A DNA stretch of 32,000 nt. It comes from Acaryochloris marina MBIC11017. Lineage in GTDB: Bacteria; Cyanobacteriota; Cyanobacteriia; Thermosynechococcales; Thermosynechococcaceae. The notes beneath the pieces are model-generated. The model worked only from the letters and a program-made list of their open reading frames with translations. It did no database searches and was not told the DNA's origin. This document shows positions 1-28,666 of the stretch, in pieces. The stretch is taken from positions 5,490,001 through 5,522,000 of the forward strand of contig NC_009925.1 in the NCBI RefSeq assembly GCF_000018105.1, written 5' to 3'. Made by a program: the position numbers and the translations under genes. Numbering within the stretch: position 1 is the stretch's first letter; each line of letters opens with the position of its first letter.

Positions 1-696
1 ACCAACTGCTTTACAATTTTGTTTTGGACCAGTTTTAAAGCATTCTTGAAAGGCTTCATTACAGGGATTCTCAAAATCTCCAAAACGGAACCACCAACCA
101 CGACCTTTTGCAGCAACAGAGCAGTATCTATAAATAGGGTTTTGATTTAAGGAAGACTGAGCTTTTAAAAAATAGCTTATTGTTTTGTTTGCAACAAAAA
201 TTTCTTGAGAAAAAACTTCCTTAGTCAAATTTCTAACATTTGTACCAAAGCTATGTGTAAATCCTGGATTAGAACATTGTCTTTGTTTTACATCTGCTGG
301 AAGCCACCCAATAACATATCTTCCATTTTCTGCATGGCACGGGAAAAAATACTGTGTGGACTTAAGAGAAGGTCCAGCTTTCATGCCTAATGTTTGATCC
401 TTCTGACCATCAAATACGTAGCTTATGAATGCTTCTGCCCTTGAATTACCTATCATCCATAAATACTGTCTCAAGTTTAATAGTCTAGCGCCGATTTGAA
501 GAGGATTACGGCGCCTAAATTTGTAATCACCTAAAAACATTAAATCTGTTGATGATGGTTCAGGTTTAAAACGAGATATTTCAGCAGCATCTGCAATAGT
601 ACTAGCCTCTGCAACATCTTCAGCTACAAAGAAAAAAAGTGTTAGAAGAATACTAAATGTTAGTGAAGCAAAATTTTTTGTGTATTGAATAATCAT
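1..696 (-). CDS. Hypothetical exported or membrane-anchored Cys-containing protein, partial (C-terminus lies beyond the left edge)
   Basis: Missing from the ORF track because no stop lies inside the window. Hand translation of the minus strand from ATG 696-694 gives 232 sense codons down to base 1, with no tta/cta/tca in that phase: MIIQYTKNFASLTFSILLTLFFFVAEDVAEAST...GRGWWFRFGDFENPCNEAFQECFKTGPKQNCKAVG. The hydrophobic N-terminal stretch looks like a signal peptide or anchor. Same strand and AT-rich composition as the gene 109 bp upstream. No family recognised. Confidence 0.55.
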   Translation of the reverse strand, partial: MIIQYTKNFASLTFSILLTLFFFVAEDVAEASTIADAAEISRFKPEPSSTDLMFLGDYKFRRRNPLQIGARLLNLRQYLWMIGNSRAEAFISYVFDGQKDQTLGMKAGPSLKSTQYFFPCHAENGRYVIGWLPADVKQRQCSNPGFTHSFGTNVRNLTKEVFSQEIFVANKTISYFLKAQSSLNQNPIYRYCSVAAKGRGWWFRFGDFENPCNEAFQECFKTGPKQNCKAVG

Positions 697-765
697 GATT
701 TTTTTAGGAAGAAGTTTAATGAGATAGAAGTTAATAATGCCCTATCTAAAATAAGAAGCTCATAA

Positions 766-802
766 TATCAGTCAATAAAATAAGTTATTTTATTGACTGA
801 TA
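766..802 (-). terminator. Perfect 18-bp inverted repeat just downstream of the caspase-STAND gene; candidate intrinsic terminator, attenuator or operator
   Basis: TATCAGTCAATAAAATAA-G-TTATTTTATTGACTGATA has 18/18 complementary arms and ends 3 nt from the stop codon (806-808). On the minus-strand RNA a moderately U-rich tract follows (UUAUGAGCUUCUUAUUUU). The stem is AU-rich, so terminator strength is uncertain. Confidence 0.4.
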
Positions 803-805
803 ATC

Positions 806-3800
806 TTAAAGCTCTTTAAGACAGAGGTTAATACGATCTTTTATCAAATAGTCAGAATTAGGATCTCCAAAAATTTGGCTTCCAAGTGTTTTTCTATTTA
901 AAGCATTACATTGTTTAGAGACTGAACTATCTGGATCATCTTCGAGCCATACACAACCTTCTTCATTCCATAATTTCTCTATTTCTTTAATTAATCTACA
1001 TGGTATTAATGAAATTTCAAGTGTATTTTCTAATCGTCCATTATTATTTAGATCAGCACCTATACCAATATTTTTATATAGAATAATATATGTTTTTTTA
1101 AGTGCCCCTTCTGTATATTGATTTTCTTCATCAGAGAATTCTGCATTTATTTTAACTTCACCATATTTTTTGTTTTTTAAATCTTTTTTGATTGCTTTAA
1201 TCCGATTTTGTATAACTAATTTGGCTAACTTGTTATCGGAATATTTTGCTAGTGATACGAGTTGACGCTTTTCATTGTTATCTATTTTAAGTGAATTCGG
1301 TAGTTGATTCTGTTTGTAATCAAGTAGTTTCCATATTTCACTGTCATTTTGGATTTTATCAAGTAAAGTTGTAACCGTAGAGATACGAACTCTTCGATAA
1401 TATGCCATTGCAATATTCAATTTACCATCTTCTTCATGTTGATTGGCTTGCTCAATTGTAGTTGTGAGCACTTCCAGTTGCACTGGAGTTTCATTACCTA
1501 ATACCCAAGAATGAATAATACTTAATTTGAGTTGATAAGAATTCCATAATGCAAAACTAATAATAAAAATTAATGAAGCTAATGAAACACCAATTGCAAT
1601 GATTTTATTGCGGTAGACTTTTTTTTCTTGTTGAATTTCTCGCAGTTTACGTTCAACTGCTTCCTTCTTTATTTGATTTTGTTTCTGTTGACTTAACTTT
1701 ATATACTCTTTCCCTACTTTTGAAATGATCTCTAAGTCATTATATTTTTCTATGAAATTTTCTGCTTCAATTAATTTATTTCCTTGAAGTAGCCAAGATA
1801 TATCTTTTTTTCTTCCTCCACTTTTCCATTCCATTGCAGAATATTCAATTTTTCTTGCAATCTTAATAGCATCTCTATGATCATTTATCCATATTTGAAG
1901 CCTAAACCAATATCGTATAAGTGCTTCATGAACAATATTAAGAACAACATTATCTTTTGTTTTATATGAGTCTTTTTCTAGAATAGTATCCGATACTATA
2001 AGTCTTTCCGATACCAGTGTTTGGATAACACTATCAACCAACTTCTCTGATTTTTGATAAATTACAAGTTCGTGTTTATAAATGCTTCTTCTTGTATCAC
2101 TAGTGCCCTCTCCTAGTTGTGTAAGTGCTAAAAAAATTAGTTTAGCTATCTTTTTTTCTTCTGTTGAGAATGATTCATAAACTTCTTCAGCTCTATTTTC
2201 TAAAGCTTTCTTTACACCACCTAAATATACATAATTTTCTAATGTGATACGATTAGATTTCCTATGCTTCCATAGTAACTCCAGCGTATACTCTAGTAAT
2301 GGTAAGCTGCCTGATTCAAGACCAAAATTGTTTATGTAGTCTGAATTTTTATCTATAAATGGCCTAGTATTTAAATCAGATGTTATCTGAACAACAAGAC
2401 CTTCATCAATCCTAAGGCCAGCTTTTTCAGCTGGTTTACCTATTGCTTCCTCTAACTCTTTCATTGTTAATGGCTTGACAGAAACTAAATTATTTTGAAT
2501 TCCGTCAATTAAACCACTGTAATTTTGCTCTGTACACTTCCCAAGAAAATCTGCTCTCATAACAATAATTATTAAAAGCTTATCTTTAATATATTCGAGA
2601 GCACTAAATAAGCATGAAAAGTATTTTTTTCTTTCCTGTTCGGATTCACATAATGTAAAAACCTCTTCAAATTGATCAATGATTAATACAGTCTTAACCG
2701 TATTAGAAATACTAATAATCCTTGAAAGACCCTCACTATTATTTGAAAATAAATTTTCAGCTTTACTTAGTTGGAAAGCGCGATCAATATCCGATATTCG
2801 TTTATCCACAAATGGAAGTGCTAAACTTTTAAGTGGATGATAGCCTGGTGTAAAAATATGAATTTTCCAATTCTCTGAACCTGAAATTTTTGTTCCTTTC
2901 TGCAATTGATAAGCTAATCCAGCTCGAACAACCGATGATTTTCCGCATCCAGATGGACCAATTATGGCTAAAAAATTTATATCTTTTTTCTTGATCTTAC
3001 TTAAAAGCTCATCAGTAAGCTTTTCTCTACCATAAAAATATTCAGCATCACTAATTTTAAAGTGTTGTAGTCCTTTGTAAGGACATTTACCTATAGGATT
3101 AACTTCAGCAATATTAATTTCACTACCAGTCAATATTATTTCATGATTAGGATTTAACCACATCGGTTGTTGAGGTGTTTCTTTCAATTCACGATTGATA
3201 TATTCAATTAGTGAATCGTTAGTAACCACCTTTCTAATACTATTTCTGTAGTTTAGTCCATTAATTATTGCATTTGTCAAAACACTATGACTTCTGTCAA
3301 TTTCCTCAGAAATCTCGAATTCTCTTGATGAAGCAAGTAGAAATAGTGAGCTTCTTTTTTCTCTAACTCCTGGCTCTATATCAATAAAGTTTAATAAGCC
3401 TCCGCTATAACAGCAATCTAACCATACTATTGGTTGCTTGATTGGACTTTCGTGTAATAATCTTTGCAATGTTTGTAGAGAATATCCCCAAAAACCCTTT
3501 GAGGGATTAACATCACTAGATGCTATATATGCTTCATTAATCCCCCAATTTTTTCGTAGACCATGACCAGAATAATATAATAATGCTGTATCTGGTATGT
3601 TTTTACCTTCTGGTTTAAATAGTTGACTAATGGCTTTATCTAATTGTTCTAAATTTATCTTTTTTTGAGATGCTATCTTCCTTTTATTTGCAATGAATGG
3701 ATCTATGAATTCAGGAAGACGTTTAATTCGAAAATTTCCATCATTTTGCAATACTTGCGCTATTCCTTCAGCATCTTTTGCAGGAGCATAAAGTGGTGAT

Positions 3801-3847
3801 AAATATTCATATGTATTTATACCTATAATCAATGCATCTCTAGACAT
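806..3847 (-). CDS. Caspase-like (peptidase C14) - nSTAND-type P-loop NTPase - single TM helix - unassigned C-terminal extracytoplasmic domain
   Basis: 1013-aa ORF with an ATG start. The caspase His/Cys dyad contexts are LLYYSGHGL (His95) and VWLDCCYSGG (Cys145/146). The STAND lead-in is PYKGLQHFKISDAEYFYGRE, followed by Walker A GPSGCGKS (nt 2936-2959), Walker B VLIIDQFEE, and later HEALIRYWFRLQIWINDHRD. A hydrophobic helix IIAIGVSLASLIFIISFALW (aa 749-768, nt 1544-1603) is preceded by KKVYRNK. The roughly 245-aa C-terminal region has 4 Cys. Confidence 0.85.
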   Translation of the reverse strand: MSRDALIIGINTYEYLSPLYAPAKDAEGIAQVLQNDGNFRIKRLPEFIDPFIANKRKIASQKKINLEQLDKAISQLFKPEGKNIPDTALLYYSGHGLRKNWGINEAYIASSDVNPSKGFWGYSLQTLQRLLHESPIKQPIVWLDCCYSGGLLNFIDIEPGVREKRSSLFLLASSREFEISEEIDRSHSVLTNAIINGLNYRNSIRKVVTNDSLIEYINRELKETPQQPMWLNPNHEIILTGSEINIAEVNPIGKCPYKGLQHFKISDAEYFYGREKLTDELLSKIKKKDINFLAIIGPSGCGKSSVVRAGLAYQLQKGTKISGSENWKIHIFTPGYHPLKSLALPFVDKRISDIDRAFQLSKAENLFSNNSEGLSRIISISNTVKTVLIIDQFEEVFTLCESEQERKKYFSCLFSALEYIKDKLLIIIVMRADFLGKCTEQNYSGLIDGIQNNLVSVKPLTMKELEEAIGKPAEKAGLRIDEGLVVQITSDLNTRPFIDKNSDYINNFGLESGSLPLLEYTLELLWKHRKSNRITLENYVYLGGVKKALENRAEEVYESFSTEEKKIAKLIFLALTQLGEGTSDTRRSIYKHELVIYQKSEKLVDSVIQTLVSERLIVSDTILEKDSYKTKDNVVLNIVHEALIRYWFRLQIWINDHRDAIKIARKIEYSAMEWKSGGRKKDISWLLQGNKLIEAENFIEKYNDLEIISKVGKEYIKLSQQKQNQIKKEAVERKLREIQQEKKVYRNKIIAIGVSLASLIFIISFALWNSYQLKLSIIHSWVLGNETPVQLEVLTTTIEQANQHEEDGKLNIAMAYYRRVRISTVTTLLDKIQNDSEIWKLLDYKQNQLPNSLKIDNNEKRQLVSLAKYSDNKLAKLVIQNRIKAIKKDLKNKKYGEVKINAEFSDEENQYTEGALKKTYIILYKNIGIGADLNNNGRLENTLEISLIPCRLIKEIEKLWNEEGCVWLEDDPDSSVSKQCNALNRKTLGSQIFGDPNSDYLIKDRINLCLKEL

Positions 3848-3872
3848 GTTTTATCATTCAAGTTTAGTAAAA

Positions 3873-3901
3873 AGAATATTCATTCAAAAAAATTAAGTCA
3901 A
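3873..3901 (-). promoter_or_regulatory. Candidate sigma70-type promoter for the caspase-STAND gene
   Basis: The minus strand reads TTGACT (3901-3896), 17 nt, then TATTCT (3878-3873). The -10 element ends 25 nt upstream of the ATG at 3847. This is a motif match only, in very AT-rich DNA where such matches arise easily. Confidence 0.3.
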
Positions 3902-3925
3902 TGTTAACAACTCATGGTAATTAGC

Positions 3926-3951
3926 CTTGTATCAATAACTTGTATCAATAA
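3926..3951. repeat. Tandem direct repeat, 2 x 13 bp (CTTGTATCAATAA), upstream of the candidate promoter
   Basis: Exact copies at 3926-3938 and 3939-3951. A related TATCAAT core recurs about 30 bp further on. The repeat lies 25-50 bp upstream of the putative -35 on the gene's upstream side. Confidence 0.8.
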
Positions 3952-4240
3952 ATAGATGTTTGAATGCTTCCTGTTATATATATCAATGTACATCTCAGAT
4001 TTTACGCAAAAAATCTAAATTCATGAGAGTTTGCTTAATACAAATCGAAGGAAACTAAATTTTGAAGAAATTGTCAGGGATGGTTAGCCAAATTGACAAG
4101 AATTGCCATATTGCCCGTTAAATTTTGCCTTTCCTGTTGTTAAGCAGTCTGAAATATTTCTTCAAGTTCACTAACACCTCTGATGAACTTATTTCTTTTA
4201 TCAAGTAGAGACACGCATTCTGCCATTCGAGTACGAGATC

Positions 4241-4774
4241 TCAAAAAGTTACACACTTCATCCACCGCTTTGCAAAACTGATGAACTGCTTTAATCCAAG
4301 GGTAGGGTGATAGCGCTTTTTGACTGGACTGTGACTTTGCTCAATGAGATTCTCAGTGCAGGGGCGAACCTCATGCTCTGCATTCTTACCCAATTCTTCT
4401 TCAATAGCAGGAGGTTAGGACGCCAAGCCATCTGTCGCGACCTTATTGGGTGGATTCTCGTGCAGGTTAGTTCGAATTTGTTCTGTAAAATGAGGCAGAA
4501 ATCTTTCTTTCCAATCCCGCACGGTTTCATGGGCAAATTCAAAACCTCGAATCCAGAAGTACTCGGCCACATCCCGATAGCTATGTTTTTAGCGTACTCG
4601 GACTAGGAGAACCTGAAATACTATATTTGTAGGGACCTCAATAAAATTGAAGGGAGTGCCTATACGTTTGTTGTAACTCCTGCAACACACTTTGCATCGA
4701 AACCGAACATATCCAAGGGCAGTCTTACTCTGAAGAAATGAGACTCGGGTTGAGCGGCAATGAGGACAATCCAT
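4241..4774 (-). pseudogene. IS6-family (IS26/IS240-like) transposase remnant with an in-frame stop and an internal deletion
   Basis: The N-terminal zinc-finger/HTH part is MDCPHCRSTRV...RFRCKVCCRSYNKRIGTPFNFIEVPTNIVFQVLLVRVR. It is followed by an in-frame TAA (4589-4591), then KHSYRDVAEYFWIRGFEFAHETVRDWKERFLPHFTEQIRTN. After a frame change the family's C-terminal motif appears: NLIEQSHSPVKKRYHPTLGLKQFISFAKR...stop (4241-4243). Only about 40 codons separate the two parts, where the DDE core should be. Confidence 0.7.
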
Positions 4775-4973
4775 TAAATACAGATAGAGTATGACTCAGG
4801 GACAGCACTCAGCCTGTCGGGATGGAAGTGGTTCCTCCATTCTGGGAAAACAGCCCTGACAGTTTCCTCCCAGCTGCTTAACCCGAACTCAGGTTAGCTA
4901 GATAGAACGTGGACTCTTCCAACAATTCCCTCCGTGCTAGGACCCTTCTCAAAGTAAGAATTTCAAACACAAA

Positions 4974-10572: not shown

Positions 10573-10926
10573 TCAGCCTGGTTTAAGGGGCTTGGCTCCT
10601 CCTGAAATCCGAGCCGTTTTGCCATACAACCGATCTAACACTCGCTTAACAGAAATACGCTTCCACGAACGCCCTCGCTTGGTCTGATAGCCATTTTGAT
10701 TGAGCCAATCAGCGATCTGCTGTAGGGATTTACCAGATTTGTGATGACGACGAATCAGATCAATAATCTCCGTTTCCCGGGGATTATCCACCAACTCCCC
10801 GTTATGGGAAAGCTGGCCAAACGGAGGAGAACCATATCCTGCATACCCGCCCTGAGCCGCCTTCGCTTGGCGACCTTCATTGAGCCGACGGCTCACCTCA
10901 TTGACATTCCATTTCTCAGCAGACAT
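10573..10926 (-). pseudogene. Truncated serine-recombinase fragment (recombinase domain only; catalytic resolvase domain missing)
   Basis: The 117-aa sequence RLNEGRQAKAAQGGYAGYGSPPFG...ETEIIDLIRRHHKSGKSLQQIADWLNQNGYQTKRGRSWKRISVKRVL matches the region after the resolvase catalytic domain of large serine recombinases. No catalytic Ser domain is present upstream. Confidence 0.6.
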
Positions 10927-12795: not shown

Positions 12796-14262
12796 TTATC
12801 GCCGAGACAGCTTGAGGATCATGGCACGGATAATGTCGTTCAACTGATTATCCCCCTCCCGTTGAGCCTTAAACCCAGCAGTTTGTAATTGGCGGAGGCC
12901 CGTTTGCTGATCGCCTTTCAAGCTGCTGAGGAGCCCCTTATGAATATCAGTGATGGCTGAGTTAAATGGAAGTTGGAGCTGTCTGATTTTCTCCAGCTCG
13001 GCAATCGTTTTGGCATAGGCAGCCGAATTGCTACCGTTGGATTTATCCTGCAAAACCCGAACAACACCTTTCATCACCTTCGCTTCCGCTAATCGGGGAT
13101 TGAATGCGATCGCACGGTCCAATGCAAACATTGCCCCCTGGTATCGCCACAGCTGCAGTTCTGATAAGGCCTGCCGATAGAGGATCGTGGCATCCAAAGG
13201 GCTGAGAACTAGAGCCTGCCGATAATCACTGAGAGACCCCGATGTATCTCTAGAATTCGCTTTCACCACTCCCCGCTGTACATAGGCTTGGGTATAGTCT
13301 GGATTAAGCTTGATCGCCTGAGTCAGATCCTCAATTGCCTTGAATGAATCTCGTTGCCGATAGTGACCCAGACTGCGGCCATAGTAAGCTTCCACATATT
13401 CAGGATCTAGCTCTATAGCCTCAGAAAAATCAGCAATCGCCCCTGCATAATCCTTACGCTTGAGTTTATCCCCCCCTTGCAAATAAAAATCTGCTGCAGT
13501 GGGTTCCTGCACATCTGGCAGAGGATCAAGCGTTCCTAGGTTGAGGGATGTGAGGGTTAAGGGTAATGAATTAAGAAAAGTATTGATAGGAATCCCTAGA
13601 TTAAATCCAGTTTTGATATAGATATCAGGATTGGTTGCTTCATCTTGAGGTTGAATCGTTTCAGTATCAGCTCTACCATGAATGGCCACCAATCGACCCT
13701 GTTCATCCAAGACAGGACCACCACTCATACCGGGCAACGTACTGTTGGAATAAACCAGTGAGTAGCCATCTGCCAGGGGTTTCGTGGCATTAGCCGTCAC
13801 TTTCCCTTCTGTAAAGTTGTAAATCGACTCCGTCAAGGCCAGGGTTTGGGCTGGAAAACCTGCCACATAAATGGGAGTCCCTTCTGGGGCATCATTCACA
13901 TTACCCATCTTGGCGACTGCATAGGTTTGGGAACTTGAAAATTGAACAACCGCCAGATCCACCCCTTTAAATTTCTGGATACTGGAAGATGTAATCTGAT
14001 GAGTTTGCTGATCAGGAGTTTGAATATCGTAGGTATTAGGCAGATCAACCACATGGGCCGCCGTGGCAACGGTGTAGGTGTTGCCCTCCTTTTTGACAAT
14101 CACCCCGGATCCTAAACCGCCTGGACTGCTAATTCGAACCGTGACATTTTTGGCAAGTTTACTGACTTCCGCTGAACTCAATGCCTGAGCTTGGGGCTGG
14201 CACCAAACCAACGCGGCTGTTGTACCAAACAGGATTGTGGAGAAGTGAAGGGCTTTATGCAT
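12796..14262 (-). CDS. Secreted trypsin-like (S1/chymotrypsin-fold) serine protease fused to C-terminal TPR repeats
   Basis: Signal peptide ending AQA/LS. The catalytic triad contexts are TAAHVV (His70), VDLAVV (Asp102) and GMSGGPV (Ser180). C-terminal TPR-like repeats include AIADFSEAIELDPEYVEAYYGRS and AIEDLTQAIKLNPDYTQAYVQRG. Confidence 0.8.
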   Translation of the reverse strand: MHKALHFSTILFGTTAALVWCQPQAQALSSAEVSKLAKNVTVRISSPGGLGSGVIVKKEGNTYTVATAAHVVDLPNTYDIQTPDQQTHQITSSSIQKFKGVDLAVVQFSSSQTYAVAKMGNVNDAPEGTPIYVAGFPAQTLALTESIYNFTEGKVTANATKPLADGYSLVYSNSTLPGMSGGPVLDEQGRLVAIHGRADTETIQPQDEATNPDIYIKTGFNLGIPINTFLNSLPLTLTSLNLGTLDPLPDVQEPTAADFYLQGGDKLKRKDYAGAIADFSEAIELDPEYVEAYYGRSLGHYRQRDSFKAIEDLTQAIKLNPDYTQAYVQRGVVKANSRDTSGSLSDYRQALVLSPLDATILYRQALSELQLWRYQGAMFALDRAIAFNPRLAEAKVMKGVVRVLQDKSNGSNSAAYAKTIAELEKIRQLQLPFNSAITDIHKGLLSSLKGDQQTGLRQLQTAGFKAQREGDNQLNDIIRAMILKLSRR

Positions 14263-19739: not shown

Positions 19740-21011
19740 CTATCGGTTTAACAAACCCACACTTCTTTGATGCACGACCAATGTCTGATACCCATTGAGG
19801 TCAAGAGAAATCCTTTGGAAGAGTCTTTCAATATCGAAAATACCGTAGCATCGTCTTTTTAAGACTTTGACTCGGTTATTAAATCCTTCCACAAAACCAC
19901 TGGTCCACCCCTCCAGGAAATAGTTGGTCATCTCGTCCATCCAATTATTGATAGTGGTCAGAAAACAATCGAATTCCTTGATGTCACTCTTGAGTACTTG
20001 TTTACACCAAGCACGGATGGCACATTTAGCTCCGTGCTTGGTGTACCTGCCCTCAAATATCTGCGTGAGTTTCTCTCGGAGGTTGTACGCCTGTTTCAGT
20101 TGTGGAGAATAAGCAAACAATCGCTCAAGGAGTTGTTGCTCTGACTCTTTCAGATTCTCTGGTCGTTTTCTAAAAGGCCACATCGCGCCTTTGATGCTGT
20201 CATACTCTTGCTTAGAGAGCTCTCGTCGTAGACGTTTGACCTCACGTTTACGAACCGTATCAGCACAATTACGATAGGCTTTGGTCACATGAAAGCGGTC
20301 AATGACAATTTTGGCTTGCGGCAATTGTTCTCGGACTGCACTGACAAATCCTTGGTACATGTCCGTACAGACGCGCTCAATGGTTTGGCGTAAATCAATG
20401 GGAATCGATTGAAGGAAATTTGCCACTGTCTGCTGTTTACGGTCGGCTAGAACTGCCAATATATCCACCCCATCCGTCGTAGGAATCGTGATCAAAACCA
20501 CAAAATCACGATGGCCTCGTTTGAGAGAAATCTCATCCATCCCCATAACTTTGAGGTCTGCATATTCGCTCCAGTCAACTTGAGCGGCAATCCAACGATC
20601 AATGATTCCACTGACGATATCCTCACTAACGCCTAGTTTTCTGGCAACATCTGAGACCGTTGAATTGATCAAGATTCGCAGAAGCCAACGCTCATATGCT
20701 TTTGTATTGGGACTGCGAGGTTCGTGCCATTCTAAATGTTGAGTTGTTGTGGGATGGTCATCGCAATACTTGCATCGATAACGCTTGGGCCGAATTTCTA
20801 AGTAAACGGGGACTTCAAATAATGGCAGGTGACGAATCCGAAAAGGCTGATCATGACAATGGAGGTCAGTAATCTCACGTCCGCATTGATGACAGGTTGT
20901 TCCTTGAAGCGTACTCTCAATCTTGATGAGCCAATCCCCTCTCTCAGTCTTCGATAGCTCTAGAACTCGAATATCAGGAAGGTTGAGCGGGATGCGAATT
21001 GAGTTATCCAT
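19740..21011 (-). CDS. ISL3-family transposase (C-terminal codons replaced by read-through into the nested IS1 end)
   Basis: 423 aa with an N-terminal zinc finger (CHQCG...CKYCD) and a DDE_Tnp_ISL3-like core (MGMDEISLKRGHRDFVVLI..., CTDMYQGF..., GFVEGFNNRVKVLKRRCYG). The last 12 codons lie beyond the IS1 insertion point. Confidence 0.85.
   Translation of the reverse strand: MDNSIRIPLNLPDIRVLELSKTERGDWLIKIESTLQGTTCHQCGREITDLHCHDQPFRIRHLPLFEVPVYLEIRPKRYRCKYCDDHPTTTQHLEWHEPRSPNTKAYERWLLRILINSTVSDVARKLGVSEDIVSGIIDRWIAAQVDWSEYADLKVMGMDEISLKRGHRDFVVLITIPTTDGVDILAVLADRKQQTVANFLQSIPIDLRQTIERVCTDMYQGFVSAVREQLPQAKIVIDRFHVTKAYRNCADTVRKREVKRLRRELSKQEYDSIKGAMWPFRKRPENLKESEQQLLERLFAYSPQLKQAYNLREKLTQIFEGRYTKHGAKCAIRAWCKQVLKSDIKEFDCFLTTINNWMDEMTNYFLEGWTSGFVEGFNNRVKVLKRRCYGIFDIERLFQRISLDLNGYQTLVVHQRSVGLLNR
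19780..19787. repeat. Right target-site duplication of the nested IS1-family element (AATGTCTG)
   Basis: Matches 18869-18876. Confidence 0.8.
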
Positions 21012-27271: not shown

Positions 27272-28666
27272 TTAATTCTCATTATCAGGAATTGGAAAGT
27301 CTTCTGCAAAATAGTTCTCATTCGCATAGTTAATTGCTGATCGGACCGTATCTTGATGCCAAGGTACAAAGACAGCCAAAATATCCCCTGTCTCAGCCTT
27401 AACCCGCTTTAAAACATGAGTGTCACTAACCCCTACACCTTTTAACTTGAGGAGGGCATACTCTTGCAAAGTATCCACCTCGATTAGAGGGAGTTCTTGA
27501 CAAACCCGAATTGCCCCAAGGGATTGAACTAACATCTCTTGCAATGCCCGATTCCGTTCCTCAAAAACCCACTGGGCTTGCCATTCTTGAGGATGAACAG
27601 TGCCATATTTTTCAGGTATAGGAGTTCCGTGATACGCATAGGCAGCAAAACCATCCGCAAACTGCACAGCAGGCTCTCCCTCACCGTGCAATTGATAATC
27701 ATCATCGATCAGAATATGAGTGGGGCGATCACAAATGATACACAGATTATCAACTGCAAAAACCCAACCGCAATATTTAGCTAACCCTTGTAAAGCAGCC
27801 CATTTCTTAGCATCATAGGGATAATTGAGTTCTGAAATAGCAAAATCTAGCCAACTACATTGATATGCAAATTCAGAAATAACTACAACTGCATTCTCTA
27901 CTAAATACTTCTGCTCAGAAAAGGATAGCGGCATAGCCAGGGTTTCCCGAAAACGAGGGGACTCCATACCGTTAATTTTTGCAATTAATGTCCCCTGCAG
28001 ATATTTCTTCATCCATCCCTGAAAGAAATATTCTTTGCCTGGAAGCCAACCCAATTGCATGTCAAGAGCAAATGCTGTATCACTAAATGATCTCTGCCAA
28101 TCTTCTTGAGATTTATCCTGGATCCTTTTTGAAAATTCTGGATCTCCTCGACGAGCTTGATGTTTGCCTAGCAAATCAATCATCGGCGTAGCACTCAGGA
28201 AAACTTGCTCAACCATGTCTTGAGTACTTAGATCTTTAGGAAGGCAGCGTTCAATATGTTTTTCAACCGCTTGGGTGGGTTTATTTGAAACTTCCTTCAA
28301 TAAATCATAAATGGGTTTCGTACCTGAATTCTGCTGTTTATTGCTTTGCTTGATCGTCCCCCATGCTGCTTCTGCAAAAAACTGAATGAAATTATTCTGG
28401 ATATCTTCTTTCGTTCGACTACGGGGATTTTGTGGAATATCTACTTGCGAGACTTGGGCTTGCAGATGATCTAACGCCGCCCGCGGGCTGGAGCAAAAAA
28501 CAACATCTGGTTCGGGTTTGCCCATAACGGCATAAACACCTTTAATTGCAGCCGCTGCTCGGACTTTTTCAATCGGTTGTGTGATTACACTAATTCGCTT
28601 CCATTTCTCCTGATATTCAGGGGTTTTTGCTTCTTGTTCAGGGGTCAAAAAACGAATCTCAGGCAT
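27272..28666 (-). CDS. Large hypothetical protein of a cyanobacteria-rich uncharacterised family (possibly the one catalogued as DUF6745)
   Basis: 464 aa. The N-terminus LTPEQEAKTPEYQEKWKRISVITQPIEKVRAAAAIKGVYAVMGKPEPDVVF and the C-terminal CDRPTHILIDDDYQLHGEGEPAVQFADGFAAYAYHGTPIPEKYG resemble a paralogous family I recall from filamentous cyanobacteria. Unverified. Confidence 0.6.
   Translation of the reverse strand: MPEIRFLTPEQEAKTPEYQEKWKRISVITQPIEKVRAAAAIKGVYAVMGKPEPDVVFCSSPRAALDHLQAQVSQVDIPQNPRSRTKEDIQNNFIQFFAEAAWGTIKQSNKQQNSGTKPIYDLLKEVSNKPTQAVEKHIERCLPKDLSTQDMVEQVFLSATPMIDLLGKHQARRGDPEFSKRIQDKSQEDWQRSFSDTAFALDMQLGWLPGKEYFFQGWMKKYLQGTLIAKINGMESPRFRETLAMPLSFSEQKYLVENAVVVISEFAYQCSWLDFAISELNYPYDAKKWAALQGLAKYCGWVFAVDNLCIICDRPTHILIDDDYQLHGEGEPAVQFADGFAAYAYHGTPIPEKYGTVHPQEWQAQWVFEERNRALQEMLVQSLGAIRVCQELPLIEVDTLQEYALLKLKGVGVSDTHVLKRVKAETGDILAVFVPWHQDTVRSAINYANENYFAEDFPIPDNEN

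What the first reader, a model, noticed from the sequence alone, without database searches (positions are those of the whole stretch)
806..3847. Intact caspase - nSTAND NTPase - TM - extracytoplasmic-domain protein: candidate membrane-spanning death or defence switch
Seen in the sequence: a caspase/C14 dyad (His95 at nt 3563-3565; Cys145/146 at nt 3410-3415). Next comes the STAND lead-in PYKGLQHFKISDAEYFYGRE with Walker A GPSGCGKS (Lys303) and Walker B VLIIDQFEE, plus the later HEALIRYWFRLQIW helix. A Lys/Glu-rich stretch follows, then one strong TM helix (aa 749-768) preceded by KKVYRNK, then a ~245-aa C-terminal domain with 4 Cys and no family I recognise (nt 809-1543). By the positive-inside rule the protease and NTPase would be cytoplasmic and the C-terminal domain periplasmic. 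Established knowledge: STAND NTPases fused to proteases (Avs/AVAST types and the caspase/CHAT-STAND conflict systems predicted by comparative genomics) oligomerise on ligand sensing and fire an effector. In those systems the sensor is usually a cytoplasmic repeat array (TPR/WD40). Inference: here the sensor position is taken by a TM helix plus an extracytoplasmic domain. That suggests sensing outside the cytoplasm (phage adsorption or injection, envelope damage, or a secreted cue) coupled to an intracellular caspase. I do not know of an experimentally characterised example. The gene sits in foreign AT-rich DNA next to IS debris, as expected for a mobile defence gene.
Basis: partly seen in the sequence, partly recalled or inferred. 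Interest (0 to 1): 0.85.

Follow-up and report, generated by a model that had tools for sequence, protein, structure and literature searches.

The report
Membrane-spanning caspase–STAND receptor with secreted partner
This Acaryochloris gene encodes a caspase-like protease and an NLR-type ATPase switch inside the cell, joined by one membrane helix to a cysteine-stabilised outside domain and always followed by a secreted partner gene; this looks like an untested bacterial "death receptor", although the general architecture was already catalogued in silico.

Summary
Window 806-3847(-) is an intact 1013-aa ORF: Peptidase_C14 (aa 5-229), a full-length nSTAND1 NTPase (aa 256-681, 382 bits), one strong hydrophobic helix (aa 749-767) and a 246-aa tail. 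The catalytic and Walker residues are invariant in 120/120 relatives.

New here:
- The tail is a conserved domain with no Pfam model, about 195 clusters among 1.84 billion proteins. It is always C-terminal and always follows a P-loop NTPase (nSTAND1, one AAA_35) and a TM helix. It has four invariant cysteines, a confident all-helical AlphaFold model with no PDB or viral fold match, and a weak, recurrent GUN4-like signal.
- The N-terminal effector varies: caspase, CHAT, trypsin, TIR or a short N-terminus.
- In 17/17 independent loci a signal-peptide protein is encoded immediately downstream.
- In A. marina the cassette lies in a 6.5-kb island of 30% GC between two direct, decayed IS6-family copies.

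The TM helix is not special to this gene: 63/69 WD40, pentapeptide and other non-tail relatives have one. Transmembrane orthocaspases and TM or GUN4 sensors on bacterial NLRs were already predicted in the literature. No defence function is shown.

Verdict: a real, well-supported new variant of a known kind, of moderate to high interest.

The parts
806..3847 (-). Complete ORF, 1013 aa: caspase - nSTAND1 - linker - TM - tail. It is 100% identical to the NCBI A. marina protein named 'nSTAND1 domain-containing NTPase'.
3161..3835 (-). Peptidase_C14 (caspase/orthocaspase p20-like) domain, aa 5-229. H95 = nt 3563-3565; C145/C146 = nt 3410-3415.
   Evidence: E 2e-16; dyad invariant in 120/120 relatives
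1805..3082 (-). nSTAND1 NTPase module, aa 256-681. Walker A GPSGCGKS (K303 = nt 2939-2941); Walker B VLIIDQFEE (D391 = nt 2675-2677).
   Evidence: 381.6 bits, full profile; invariance
1604..1804 (-). Cytoplasmic linker, aa 682-748. It contains the 'LLQGNKLIEAENF' motif and a Lys/Glu/Gln-rich stretch that runs straight into the TM helix and ends in KKVYRNK.
   Evidence: sequence; K/R count
1547..1603 (-). Single predicted transmembrane helix, aa 749-767 (IIAIGVSLASLIFIISFAL), followed by an interfacial Trp.
   Evidence: mean KD 2.67; hydrophobicity conserved at this position, sequence not
809..1546 (-). Tail domain, aa 768-1013. It is all-alpha, with invariant C950, C965, C980 and C1009 (nt 998-1000, 953-955, 908-910, 821-823), the invariant motif A931-D932-x-N934...E944...P949-C950, and a weak GUN4-like segment.
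1..696 (-). First 232 codons of the conserved partner gene. The full gene is 442 aa at L001 13152-14480. It has an N-terminal signal-peptide-like segment and the invariant YxFPC...G...W...C motif.
   Evidence: partner immediately downstream in 17/17 loci
4087..4866 (-). Left copy of a 780-bp decayed IS6-family element, with a Zn-finger N-terminus, stop codons and an internal deletion. A direct second copy (97.6% identical) lies 7246 bp away beyond the window edge (L001 16228-17007).
1..4086 (.). The part of the AT-rich island (GC about 0.30) that lies inside the window. The whole island is L001 9762-16227 (6466 bp) and carries four same-strand genes (1013, 442, 128 and 307 aa).

Best explanation
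This is a horizontally acquired two-gene signalling module. Gene 1 encodes a single-pass membrane protein. Its N-terminal caspase-like protease (the effector) and nSTAND1 NTPase (the switch) face the cytoplasm. Its C-terminal alpha-helical tail, probably stabilised by disulfides and partly GUN4-like, faces an oxidising compartment, either the periplasm or possibly the thylakoid lumen. Gene 2 encodes an exported protein that most likely binds or conditions the tail, as a co-receptor, ligand presenter or inhibitor.

Proposed mechanism: a change outside the cytoplasm is passed through the TM helix and the charged juxtamembrane helix. That change could be ligand binding, or loss, cleavage or displacement of the partner. 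The nSTAND1 module then exchanges nucleotide and oligomerises. This brings the caspase domains together and activates them, and they cleave cytoplasmic targets, giving growth arrest or death, most plausibly as a response to an invader or to damage.

Shown here: the domains and intact catalytic motifs; conservation of the tail family; its strict nSTAND1-TM-tail context; effector swapping; the 17/17 linkage to the partner; and the IS-flanked AT-rich island. Inferred: the topology, the disulfides, the tail-partner interaction, the signal, activation by oligomerisation and the biological role.
For: Domains and motifs.
Topology: the only strong hydrophobic helix in the protein. K/R N-flank 3-8 against C-flank 0-4 in 34/34 family members, each with at least 4 tail Cys. 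Four invariant Cys in a domain that is otherwise about 30% identical. Two of these Cys align with Ser and Phe in Arabidopsis GUN4, so they are specific to this family.
Tail as a discrete folded domain: AlphaFold pLDDT 89, pTM 0.87. It is a rare family of 195 clusters, always C-terminal.
Tail in the sensor position: every full-length member is nSTAND1 (one AAA_35) + TM + tail, while the N-terminus is caspase, CHAT, Trypsin_2, TIR or short.
Partner: a homologue lies directly downstream on the same strand, with a gap of -14 to +173 nt in the 11 loci measured, in 17/17 independent loci, one of them on a conjugative plasmid. All 12 partners examined have a signal-peptide-like N-terminus and no other TM. 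Some carry PT, Ig or CAP extracellular-type add-ons.
Conflict-system flavour: effector swapping; Trypco1 genes upstream in 3 loci; the IS6-flanked 30%-GC island; a plasmid copy.
Against: No dedicated topology predictor (TMHMM, DeepTMHMM, SignalP) was available, so the topology rests on heuristics. The tail-partner interaction is inferred from gene linkage only. A mirror-tree test was not significant (rho 0.23, p 0.13) and the partner structure could not be modelled (pLDDT 34). PADLOC finds no known defence system. Neighbourhoods in other genomes are heterogeneous and GC-native, so a defence role is not demonstrated. No phage homologues were found. No experimental data exist for any member (literature searches).
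Confidence: 0.6

Rival explanations
1. The architecture and topology are the same, but the module is not an anti-invader or abortive-infection system. It would be a physiological signalling protease that reports envelope, thylakoid or pigment status, for example tetrapyrrole or chlorophyll derivatives sensed by the GUN4-like tail, and that controls stress adaptation, differentiation or regulated turnover.
For: Recurrent GUN4-like signal in the tail: 18/32 members at E<=0.1, best 5.4e-6; 8/10 members; AtGUN4 PDB 7E2R at E 0.084 in the same register. GUN4 fusions have been proposed as sensors of photosynthetic status (PMC7159879; bioRxiv 10.1101/2022.07.19.500537). There is no PADLOC system. The module is GC-native and sits among housekeeping or signalling genes in most other genomes. 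Orthocaspases are implicated in stress and homeostasis (PMC7475262, PMC7517822).
Against: Swapping among caspase, CHAT, trypsin and TIR on a constant sensor is the hallmark of conflict systems (PMC7159879, PMC8195603). Trypco1 neighbours are present in 3 loci. The module occurs on a plasmid and on an IS-bounded island. The GUN4 similarity is sub-threshold and covers only about half of the GUN4 core. The query's own tail gives no GUN4 hit. Foldseek found no GUN4 structure with E below about 6, the limit of the 50 rows shown.
Confidence: 0.27
2. The hydrophobic segment is only a membrane tether or a buried dimerisation helix and the tail is cytoplasmic. The protein would then be a conventional cytoplasmic STAND sensor, and the downstream gene would be functionally unrelated or a secreted effector.
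For: No dedicated topology predictor or experiment was available. Canonical GUN4 domains are cytoplasmic or stromal (established knowledge). WD40 and pentapeptide relatives also carry the segment, and export of large beta-propellers is unusual.
Against: Mean KD is 2.0-2.9 over 19 residues, conserved in position but not in sequence. The positive-inside bias is consistent in 34/34 members. Four invariant Cys are confined to the tail. The co-encoded protein is exported and strictly linked in 17/17 loci. In the control, only 4/120 proteins have a segment with KD >= 1.9 anywhere in the roughly 680-aa cytoplasmic part.
Confidence: 0.08
3. The gene is a decaying passenger of a dead composite transposon and is no longer functional in A. 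marina.
For: Both flanking IS6-family copies are decayed (stop codons, deletion). The island is compositionally foreign. Promoter-like matches are fewer than expected by chance (10 found against 19.6 expected).
Against: The 3042-nt ORF is intact, with every catalytic and structural invariant preserved. All four cassette genes are intact. The identical protein occurs on eight public contigs read, including two complete A. marina chromosomes.
Confidence: 0.05

Closest known systems
Cyanobacterial caspase (orthocaspase)-nSTAND1 proteins with WD40, pentapeptide or FGE-sulfatase/CLec C-termini (Kaur et al. 2020/2021, PMC7159879 and PMC8195603; DGR targets, PMC10907252)
   Same: The same C14 effector and the same nSTAND1 clade, at 40-52% identity over aa 1-750. 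The same post-NTPase hydrophobic helix is present in 63/69 of them. All are cyanobacterial and all are predicted conflict systems.
   Different: The C-terminal module here is a non-repeat, Cys-stabilised helical domain with no Pfam model. It is strictly linked to a secreted partner gene, which I did not find described for those proteins.
'cbMC-alpha-TM' metacaspases / transmembrane orthocaspases (Jiang et al. 2010, PMC2853523; Bhattacharjee & Mishra 2020, PMC7475262)
   Same: The A. marina MBIC11017 entry 641254504 (single TM, annotated 'WD-40 repeat protein') is very likely this protein. P0001 carries the same UniRef name, and its longest contig is 6,503,724 bp, which matches my recollection of that strain's chromosome length. 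The 2020 review already proposed a cytoplasmic p20 with an extracellular C-terminal domain acting in 'extrinsic PCD'.
   Different: Those surveys did not recognise the NTPase as nSTAND1, did not define the tail as a domain family, and did not note the partner gene or the effector swapping. The link between the 2010 table entry and this protein rests on the annotation name and the genome, not on a sequence comparison.
Antiviral STAND NTPases: Avs/AVAST and bNACHT (Kibby et al., bioRxiv 10.1101/2022.07.19.500537; PMC13581612)
   Same: The same three-part logic: N-terminal effector, STAND switch, C-terminal sensor. Effectors are shuffled on conserved sensors. Activation by oligomerisation is established for Avs.
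   Different: They belong to different NTPase clades: NACHT and AAA_16 hits here are below their cutoffs and there are no Avs hits in PADLOC. Characterised members sense phage proteins in the cytoplasm. The 'TM regions' class of bNACHT is only predicted.
GUN4 domain (PF05419) fusions to caspases, trypsin, TIR and kinases in cyanobacteria
   Same: The same set of partner effectors (PMC7159879). The motif register '...PC/SP-E-x-L-x-x-ID-x-LW-x-x-x-D-x-R-x-G' is shared with Arabidopsis GUN4.
   Different: Similarity is sub-threshold (best 28.3 bits against a cutoff of 29.2; the query itself gives no hit) and covers about positions 13-84 of 141. This family adds four invariant Cys, a Ca-loop-like ADxNxxG motif, an N-terminal helical extension and a preceding TM helix. 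No structural match to GUN4 appeared among the Foldseek rows shown.
EACC1 two-gene membrane-associated caspase systems (PMC7159879; PMC12642450)
   Same: A caspase of a related subtype (NCBIfam caspase_w_EACC1, 77 bits), a membrane association and a two-gene organisation.
   Different: The score is below the cutoff of 140. No EACC1 gene was seen. The membrane element here is within the same polypeptide and the second gene encodes a secreted protein.
Single-pass N-in/C-out bacterial receptors (PknB-type Ser/Thr kinases, anti-sigma factors such as RsgI) and animal death receptors (analogy only)
   Same: A large cytoplasmic signalling module, one TM helix and an extracytoplasmic ligand-binding domain. 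An outside cue is coupled to an inside enzyme.
   Different: There is no homology. The output here is a STAND-gated protease, not a kinase or a sigma factor.

Membership tests
Peptidase C14 (caspase / orthocaspase) | Pfam PF00656 above its gathering score | tested here: met
   60.8 bits against a cutoff of 21.4, aa 5-229
Peptidase C14 (caspase / orthocaspase) | His-Cys catalytic dyad in the SGHG and D-x-C-[HY]-S-G contexts | tested here: met
   YYSGHG (H95) and LDCCYSGG (C145/C146); invariant in 120/120 relatives
Peptidase C14 (caspase / orthocaspase) | Proteolytic activity | not testable with these tools
   Needs a biochemical assay
nSTAND1 NTPase (PF20703) | Pfam model above its gathering score with full-length coverage | tested here: met
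   381.6 bits against a cutoff of 27.1, profile positions 1-378 of 379
nSTAND1 NTPase (PF20703) | Intact Walker A (GxxxxGKS) and Walker B (hhhhDxxE) motifs | tested here: met
   GPSGCGKS and VLIIDQFEE; K303, D391, E394 and E395 invariant in 120/120
Single-pass N-in/C-out membrane receptor | One hydrophobic helix of about 19-21 aa with a positive-inside charge bias | tested here: met
   Mean KD 2.67 at aa 749-767; K/R 6 against 1; the same bias in 34/34 family members. This is heuristic only; TMHMM and DeepTMHMM were not available.
Single-pass N-in/C-out membrane receptor | Experimental or predictor-based evidence that the C-terminal domain is extracytoplasmic | not testable with these tools
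   Indirect support only: four invariant Cys and an exported partner
GUN4 domain (PF05419) | Pfam model above its gathering score (29.2 bits) | tested here: not met
   The query tail gives no hit at E<=0.1. The best score seen in the family is 28.3 bits (P0210). 18/32 tails hit at E<=0.1, best E 5.4e-6.
GUN4 domain (PF05419) | Sequence or profile similarity to a solved GUN4 structure | tested here: inconclusive
   7E2R at E 0.084. hhalign E 0.0054, probability 6.7%. No GUN4 entry among the 50 Foldseek rows shown; 106 matches had E<=10.
GUN4 domain (PF05419) | Tetrapyrrole binding | not testable with these tools
   Needs a binding assay
EACC1-associated caspase system | NCBIfam NF047832 above its cutoff, plus an adjacent EACC1 gene | tested here: not met
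   77.3 bits against a cutoff of 140. The neighbours are an IS remnant and the partner gene, and none matches any Pfam family.
Known anti-phage defence systems (PADLOC-DB v2: Avs, bNACHT and others) | A match to a system-specific model | tested here: not met
   Only the generic 'caspase' model PDLC02987 (E 2e-11) and weak P-loop matches. The three downstream genes give no hits.
IS6/IS26-type pseudo-compound transposon | A passenger segment bracketed by two directly oriented IS6-family copies | tested here: met
   780-bp direct repeats, 97.6% identical, DDE_Tnp_IS240 at 30.9 bits against a cutoff of 27
IS6/IS26-type pseudo-compound transposon | An intact transposase and an 8-bp target-site duplication | tested here: not met
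   The reading frame has stop codons and an internal deletion. No matching flanking octamers were found.

The most novel reading that the evidence does not exclude
The module is a bacterial 'extrinsic death receptor': a transmembrane NLR-like switch. Its disulfide-bonded, GUN4-derived ectodomain, in complex with a dedicated secreted co-receptor, would detect a cue outside the cytoplasm. Candidate cues are phage adsorption or envelope breach in the periplasm, or free tetrapyrrole or chlorophyll breakdown products in the thylakoid lumen. On detection it would fire an intracellular caspase (or CHAT, trypsin or TIR in sister systems). Because 63/69 WD40, pentapeptide and other non-tail relatives also carry the TM helix, outside-in sensing would be the rule for this whole cyanobacterial caspase-nSTAND1 clade.
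Probability: 0.3. Interest if true: 0.85.

Novelty: new variant of a known kind. Interest (0 to 1): 0.58.

Why it matters
All experimentally characterised prokaryotic STAND/NLR immune sensors detect their triggers in the cytoplasm. A STAND switch whose sensor lies across the membrane, with its own secreted partner, would show that bacteria can couple extracytoplasmic recognition to an intracellular executioner protease. That would be a mechanistic parallel to extrinsic apoptosis and to receptor-plus-NLR layouts in eukaryotes.

The family defined here is compact: a two-gene core, with only about 195 representative clusters for the tail domain. It has clear catalytic residues to mutate (H95, C146, K303), four cysteines to test, and natural effector variants (caspase, CHAT, trypsin, TIR). 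These features make the question directly testable.

The work also gives a name-worthy new domain (the tail) and a new secreted protein family, neither covered by Pfam or NCBIfam. Finally, it suggests that published 'cytoplasmic' readings of cyanobacterial caspase-WD40 and caspase-pentapeptide proteins should be re-examined.

Tried and rejected
1. The word-indexed homology search with the tail alone found nothing, not even the query's own protein. The same kind of search with the partner found only one homologue. This reflects the tool's sensitivity limit, not absence: local BLAST and HMMER on full-length hits and the exhaustive profile search recovered the families.
2. Foldseek of the confident tail model against PDB and BFVD gave no match (best E 0.67 and 0.98).
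3. A profile search of the tail against PDB sequences gave nothing significant. The resemblance of ADLNxDG to dockerin Ca-binding loops has E = 1.7 and remains only a lead.
The permitted 2-sequence job gave pLDDT 34, which is unusable, so I ran no fold search on it.
5. A mirror-tree test of tail-partner co-divergence was not significant (rho 0.23, p 0.13).
6. PADLOC, Pfam and NCBIfam on the partner and on the 128-aa and 307-aa genes gave no family.
7. A metagenome scan for relatives of the 307-aa gene found none.
8. No target-site duplication was found around the IS-bounded unit.
9. Membership of the EACC1 system was rejected because the score is below the cutoff. Membership of Avs and bNACHT was rejected.
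10. The promoter and terminator scans were uninformative: matches were at or below shuffle expectation, and no terminator-like site lies between gene 1 and the partner.
11. The first locus search with the 32-sequence alignment failed for lack of a conserved stretch. A closer 8-sequence subset worked, but it samples mainly one subclade.


Full report
OBSERVATION. Window 806..3847 on the minus strand is an intact ATG-initiated ORF of 1013 aa. Pfam assigns Peptidase_C14 to aa 5-229 (E 2e-16, 60.8 bits against a cutoff of 21.4). It assigns nSTAND1 to aa 256-681 (E 8e-114, 381.6 bits, profile positions 1-378 of 379). In an alignment of the 120 best relatives, H95, C145, C146, the Walker A residues G297/G302/K303/S304 and the Walker B residues D391/Q392/E394/E395 are all invariant. 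The only strongly hydrophobic 19-mer in the protein is aa 749-767 (mean Kyte-Doolittle 2.67). It is preceded by KKVYRNK and followed by a Trp. The remaining 246 residues contain four Cys and match no Pfam, NCBIfam or PADLOC family.

ORIGIN AND SETTING. The identical protein is encoded in Acaryochloris marina: GCA_024347835.1, chromosome AP026075.1, from which this window comes. It also occurs on a 6,503,724-bp contig, which matches my recollection of the MBIC11017 chromosome length. NCBI names it 'nSTAND1 domain-containing NTPase' and UniRef names it 'WD-40 repeat protein'.

The gene lies in a 6466-bp island of about 30% GC within a chromosome of about 48% GC. The island carries four same-strand genes of 1013, 442, 128 and 307 aa. 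It is bracketed by two directly oriented 780-bp repeats that are 97.6% identical: L001 8982-9761 (= window 4866-4087) and L001 16228-17007. Each repeat encodes a decayed IS6-family transposase (DDE_Tnp_IS240, 30.9 bits against a cutoff of 27), with stop codons and an internal deletion. This is the layout of an IS26-type pseudo-compound transposon, now dead. I found no target-site duplication. The rest of the window is ordinary chromosome: a class II aminoacyl-tRNA synthetase, a CCA-adding enzyme, tRNA-Leu, an outer-membrane efflux protein, an intact ISL3 transposase and a trypsin-TPR protein.

THE TAIL IS A CONSERVED, UNANNOTATED DOMAIN. Of the 120 best full-length relatives, 37 carry a homologous tail (28-37% identity by BLASTP). 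In a 32-sequence alignment (A1), all four Cys are invariant: tail positions 183, 198, 213 and 242, which are aa 950, 965, 980 and 1009. Also invariant are a Y-Y-R motif and the segment A-D-x-N...G...E...P-C. Mean identity to the query is only about 30%.

AlphaFold2 with this alignment gives a confident all-alpha model: pLDDT 89.1, pTM 0.87, eleven helices. Foldseek finds no significant match in the PDB (best E 0.67, TM <= 0.31) or in BFVD (best E 0.98).

An exhaustive profile search of 1.84 billion representative proteins finds only 195 clusters (E <= 1e-3). The domain is at the extreme C-terminus in nearly all of them; P0188 and P0196 continue for 200-440 aa beyond it. Every full-length member has nSTAND1 (one has AAA_35), then a hydrophobic helix, then the tail. 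The N-terminal module varies: caspase, caspase plus an insert, CHAT, Trypsin_2, TIR, or a short 50-70-aa N-terminus. A constant C-terminal module with a shuffled N-terminal effector is the standard STAND arrangement, with the sensor at the C-terminus (established knowledge; PMC8195603; bioRxiv 10.1101/2022.07.19.500537).

A WEAK GUN4-LIKE SIGNAL. PF05419 (GUN4) is the only Pfam family that recurs in the tails. It hits 8 of 10 representative proteins, with a best score of 28.3 bits against a cutoff of 29.2. It hits 18 of 32 A1 members at E <= 0.1, with a best E of 5.4e-6, and no other family is hit by more than 2 members. The query's own tail gives no hit.

One member's tail aligns with Arabidopsis GUN4 (PDB 7E2R) at E 0.084, in the same register. 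hhalign of A1 against that GUN4 segment gives E 0.0054 but a probability of only 6.7%. The match covers roughly the first half of the GUN4 core. Two of the four invariant Cys align with Ser and Phe in GUN4, so the cysteines are an innovation of this family.

I therefore describe the tail as 'partly GUN4-like, unproven' and do not file it under GUN4. The ADLNxDG loop resembles dockerin and EF-hand Ca-binding loops, but only at E = 1.7, so that is a lead and nothing more.

TOPOLOGY. The caspase and the NTPase need cytosolic substrates and NTP, and there is no N-terminal signal sequence, so the N-terminus must be cytoplasmic. With a single TM helix, the tail is then outside. Four observations support this:
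- The hydrophobic segment is conserved in position but not in sequence.
- The N-flank has 3-8 K/R against 0-4 in the C-flank in all 34 family members examined.
- The four invariant Cys are confined to the tail.
- The co-encoded partner is exported (see below).
'Outside' could mean the periplasm or the thylakoid lumen in a cyanobacterium; I cannot tell which. No dedicated topology predictor was available.

THE TM HELIX IS CLADE-WIDE. Within 160 aa after the nSTAND1 module, a 19-mer with mean KD >= 1.6 occurs in 34/37 tail-bearing relatives. It also occurs in 63/69 long relatives that lack the tail; one search shows these carry WD40, pentapeptide, FGE-sulfatase or Reg_prop C-termini. As a control, only 22/120 proteins reach 1.6, and 4/120 reach 1.9, anywhere in the roughly 680-aa cytoplasmic part.

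A STRICTLY LINKED SECRETED PARTNER. The gene that starts at window 696(-) and runs off the window edge encodes a 442-aa protein. Homologues lie immediately downstream on the same strand in every locus examined:
- L001, L007, L008 and L009.
- L010-L014, L016 and L017, from GTDB genomes.
- A conjugative plasmid of Gloeothece citriformis PCC 7424, where gene 1 has a CHAT effector and the partner overlaps it by 4 nt.
- Five further metagenome loci, L022-L026.
That makes 17 of 17 independent loci, with hmmsearch E-values from 3e-10 to about 1e-198. The intergenic gaps are -14 to +173 nt in the 11 loci measured. The linkage holds whatever the N-terminal effector is, so the partner tracks the tail.

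All 12 partners inspected have a positively charged n-region, a hydrophobic h-region and no other TM segment. They share an invariant Y-x-F-P-C...G...W...C motif, a beta-rich core and an SPxxQxFLxPxNW motif. Single members add PT repeats, a bacterial Ig domain or a CAP domain, all of which are typical of extracellular proteins. No Pfam, NCBIfam or PADLOC family covers the core.

The 128-aa gene (with a C-terminal CPxG...CPxHG pattern) and the 307-aa gene (with hydrophobic segments at both ends) are shared only with the closest relative, L007. They have no detectable relatives elsewhere.

MECHANISM (inference). The best-supported model is an outside-in STAND switch. The extracytoplasmic tail, together with the secreted partner, detects a ligand or a perturbation. 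The signal passes through the TM helix and the charged juxtamembrane helix (aa 715-748). The nSTAND1 module then exchanges nucleotide and oligomerises, and the caspase domains are activated by proximity and cleave cytoplasmic targets. Whether the partner is a co-receptor, a ligand presenter or a guard-type inhibitor cannot be decided here. The mirror-tree test was not significant and the partner could not be modelled.

A conflict or defence role is suggested by four things: effector shuffling; Trypco1 genes upstream in three loci (Trypco1 is defined in PMC7159879); carriage on a plasmid; and carriage on an IS-bounded island. It is not demonstrated. PADLOC recognises no system, phages carry no homologue, and in the other genomes the module has native GC and varied neighbours.

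The main rival keeps the architecture but assigns a physiological role, such as sensing pigment or envelope status through the GUN4-like tail.

COMPARISON WITH WHAT IS KNOWN. The protein is a bona fide member of Peptidase_C14 and of nSTAND1; the latter is defined in PMC8195603. It is not an EACC1-system caspase (77 bits against a cutoff of 140), and it is not an Avs or bNACHT protein.

The architecture class has been noted before, in silico only:
- Jiang et al. 2010 list an A. marina MBIC11017 'cbMC-alpha-TM' metacaspase annotated 'WD-40 repeat protein' (PMC2853523). It is very probably this protein.
- Bhattacharjee & Mishra 2020 propose transmembrane orthocaspases with a cytoplasmic p20 plus AAA_16/NACHT and an extracellular WD40, acting in 'extrinsic PCD' (PMC7475262).
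- Kibby et al. list 'TM regions' (periplasmic signals) and 'GUN4' as classes of C-terminal sensor in bacterial NLRs (bioRxiv 10.1101/2022.07.19.500537).
- Doré et al. predict periplasmic CLec sensors on some STAND proteins (PMC10907252).

In the papers I searched I found three things missing: the tail as a defined domain family; its strict nSTAND1-TM context with four invariant Cys; and the obligate secreted partner. I also found no experimental work on any member.

VERDICT. Its claim to novelty has to be reduced, because transmembrane caspase-STAND proteins are a catalogued class and the TM helix is the clade norm. What remains new is a compact two-gene module, made of a membrane-spanning STAND receptor with a previously undefined ectodomain and a dedicated secreted partner, which is a new variant of a known kind. 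Interest 0.58.

Noticed in passing
L001 14713-15099 and 15110-16033 (beyond the window's left edge, inside the AT-rich island): Two more same-strand cassette genes. One is 128 aa with a C-terminal CPxG...CPxHG (zinc-ribbon-like) pattern. The other is 307 aa with hydrophobic segments at both ends. Both are shared only with the closest relative L007 (44% identity each) and match no family in Pfam, NCBIfam or PADLOC. They could be an accessory effector or regulator pair of the system.
   Followed up: partly
Relatives P0009-P0120, region about 700-800 aa: 63/69 caspase-nSTAND1 relatives that lack the tail (WD40, pentapeptide, FGE-sulfatase or Reg_prop C-termini) have a TM-grade hydrophobic helix right after the NTPase. 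This implies that those repeat domains are also extracytoplasmic, contrary to the usual cytoplasmic reading of STAND repeat sensors.
   Followed up: partly
L008 7494-7883(-), L009 7392-7823(-), L010 4058-4471(-): A Trypco1 (PF19493) gene lies divergently upstream of the caspase-nSTAND1-tail gene in three genomes. Trypco1 was described as a companion of trypsin-like peptidases in conflict systems, not of caspases.
   Followed up: no
window 4087-4866 and L001 16228-17007: Two 780-bp decayed IS6-family copies, 97.6% identical and in direct orientation, bracket the island. The element has lost the middle of its transposase and may be a non-autonomous derivative present elsewhere in the genome. Several Logan assemblies of this gene end within a few hundred bases of it (L004-L006), consistent with assembly breaks at a nearby repeat.
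   Followed up: partly
L001 19000-20000 (outside the window): A second AT-rich patch (GC 0.32-0.35) lies about 2 kb beyond the right IS copy. It contains small ORFs with no Pfam hits, including a 203-aa protein with a lipoprotein-like N-terminus at L001 18317-18928.
   Followed up: no
window 12796-14262(-): A 488-aa Trypsin_2 + TPR protein in native-GC DNA about 9 kb from the island. It is another protease-plus-repeat architecture of the conflict-system type and is unrelated to the island.
   Followed up: no
window 19740-21011(-) and about 10573-10926(-): An intact ISL3-family transposase (252.7 bits) and a short serine-recombinase fragment (PF07508, from the L001 gene list). The region has seen repeated mobile-element traffic.
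   Followed up: no
window 27272-28666(-): A 464-aa DUF6745 protein sits in a mild AT dip (GC about 0.41).
   Followed up: no
tool behaviour: The word-indexed protein search failed to return the query's own database entry when given only the tail or only the partner. Null results from that tool for AT-rich or low-complexity queries should not be read as absence.
   Followed up: yes
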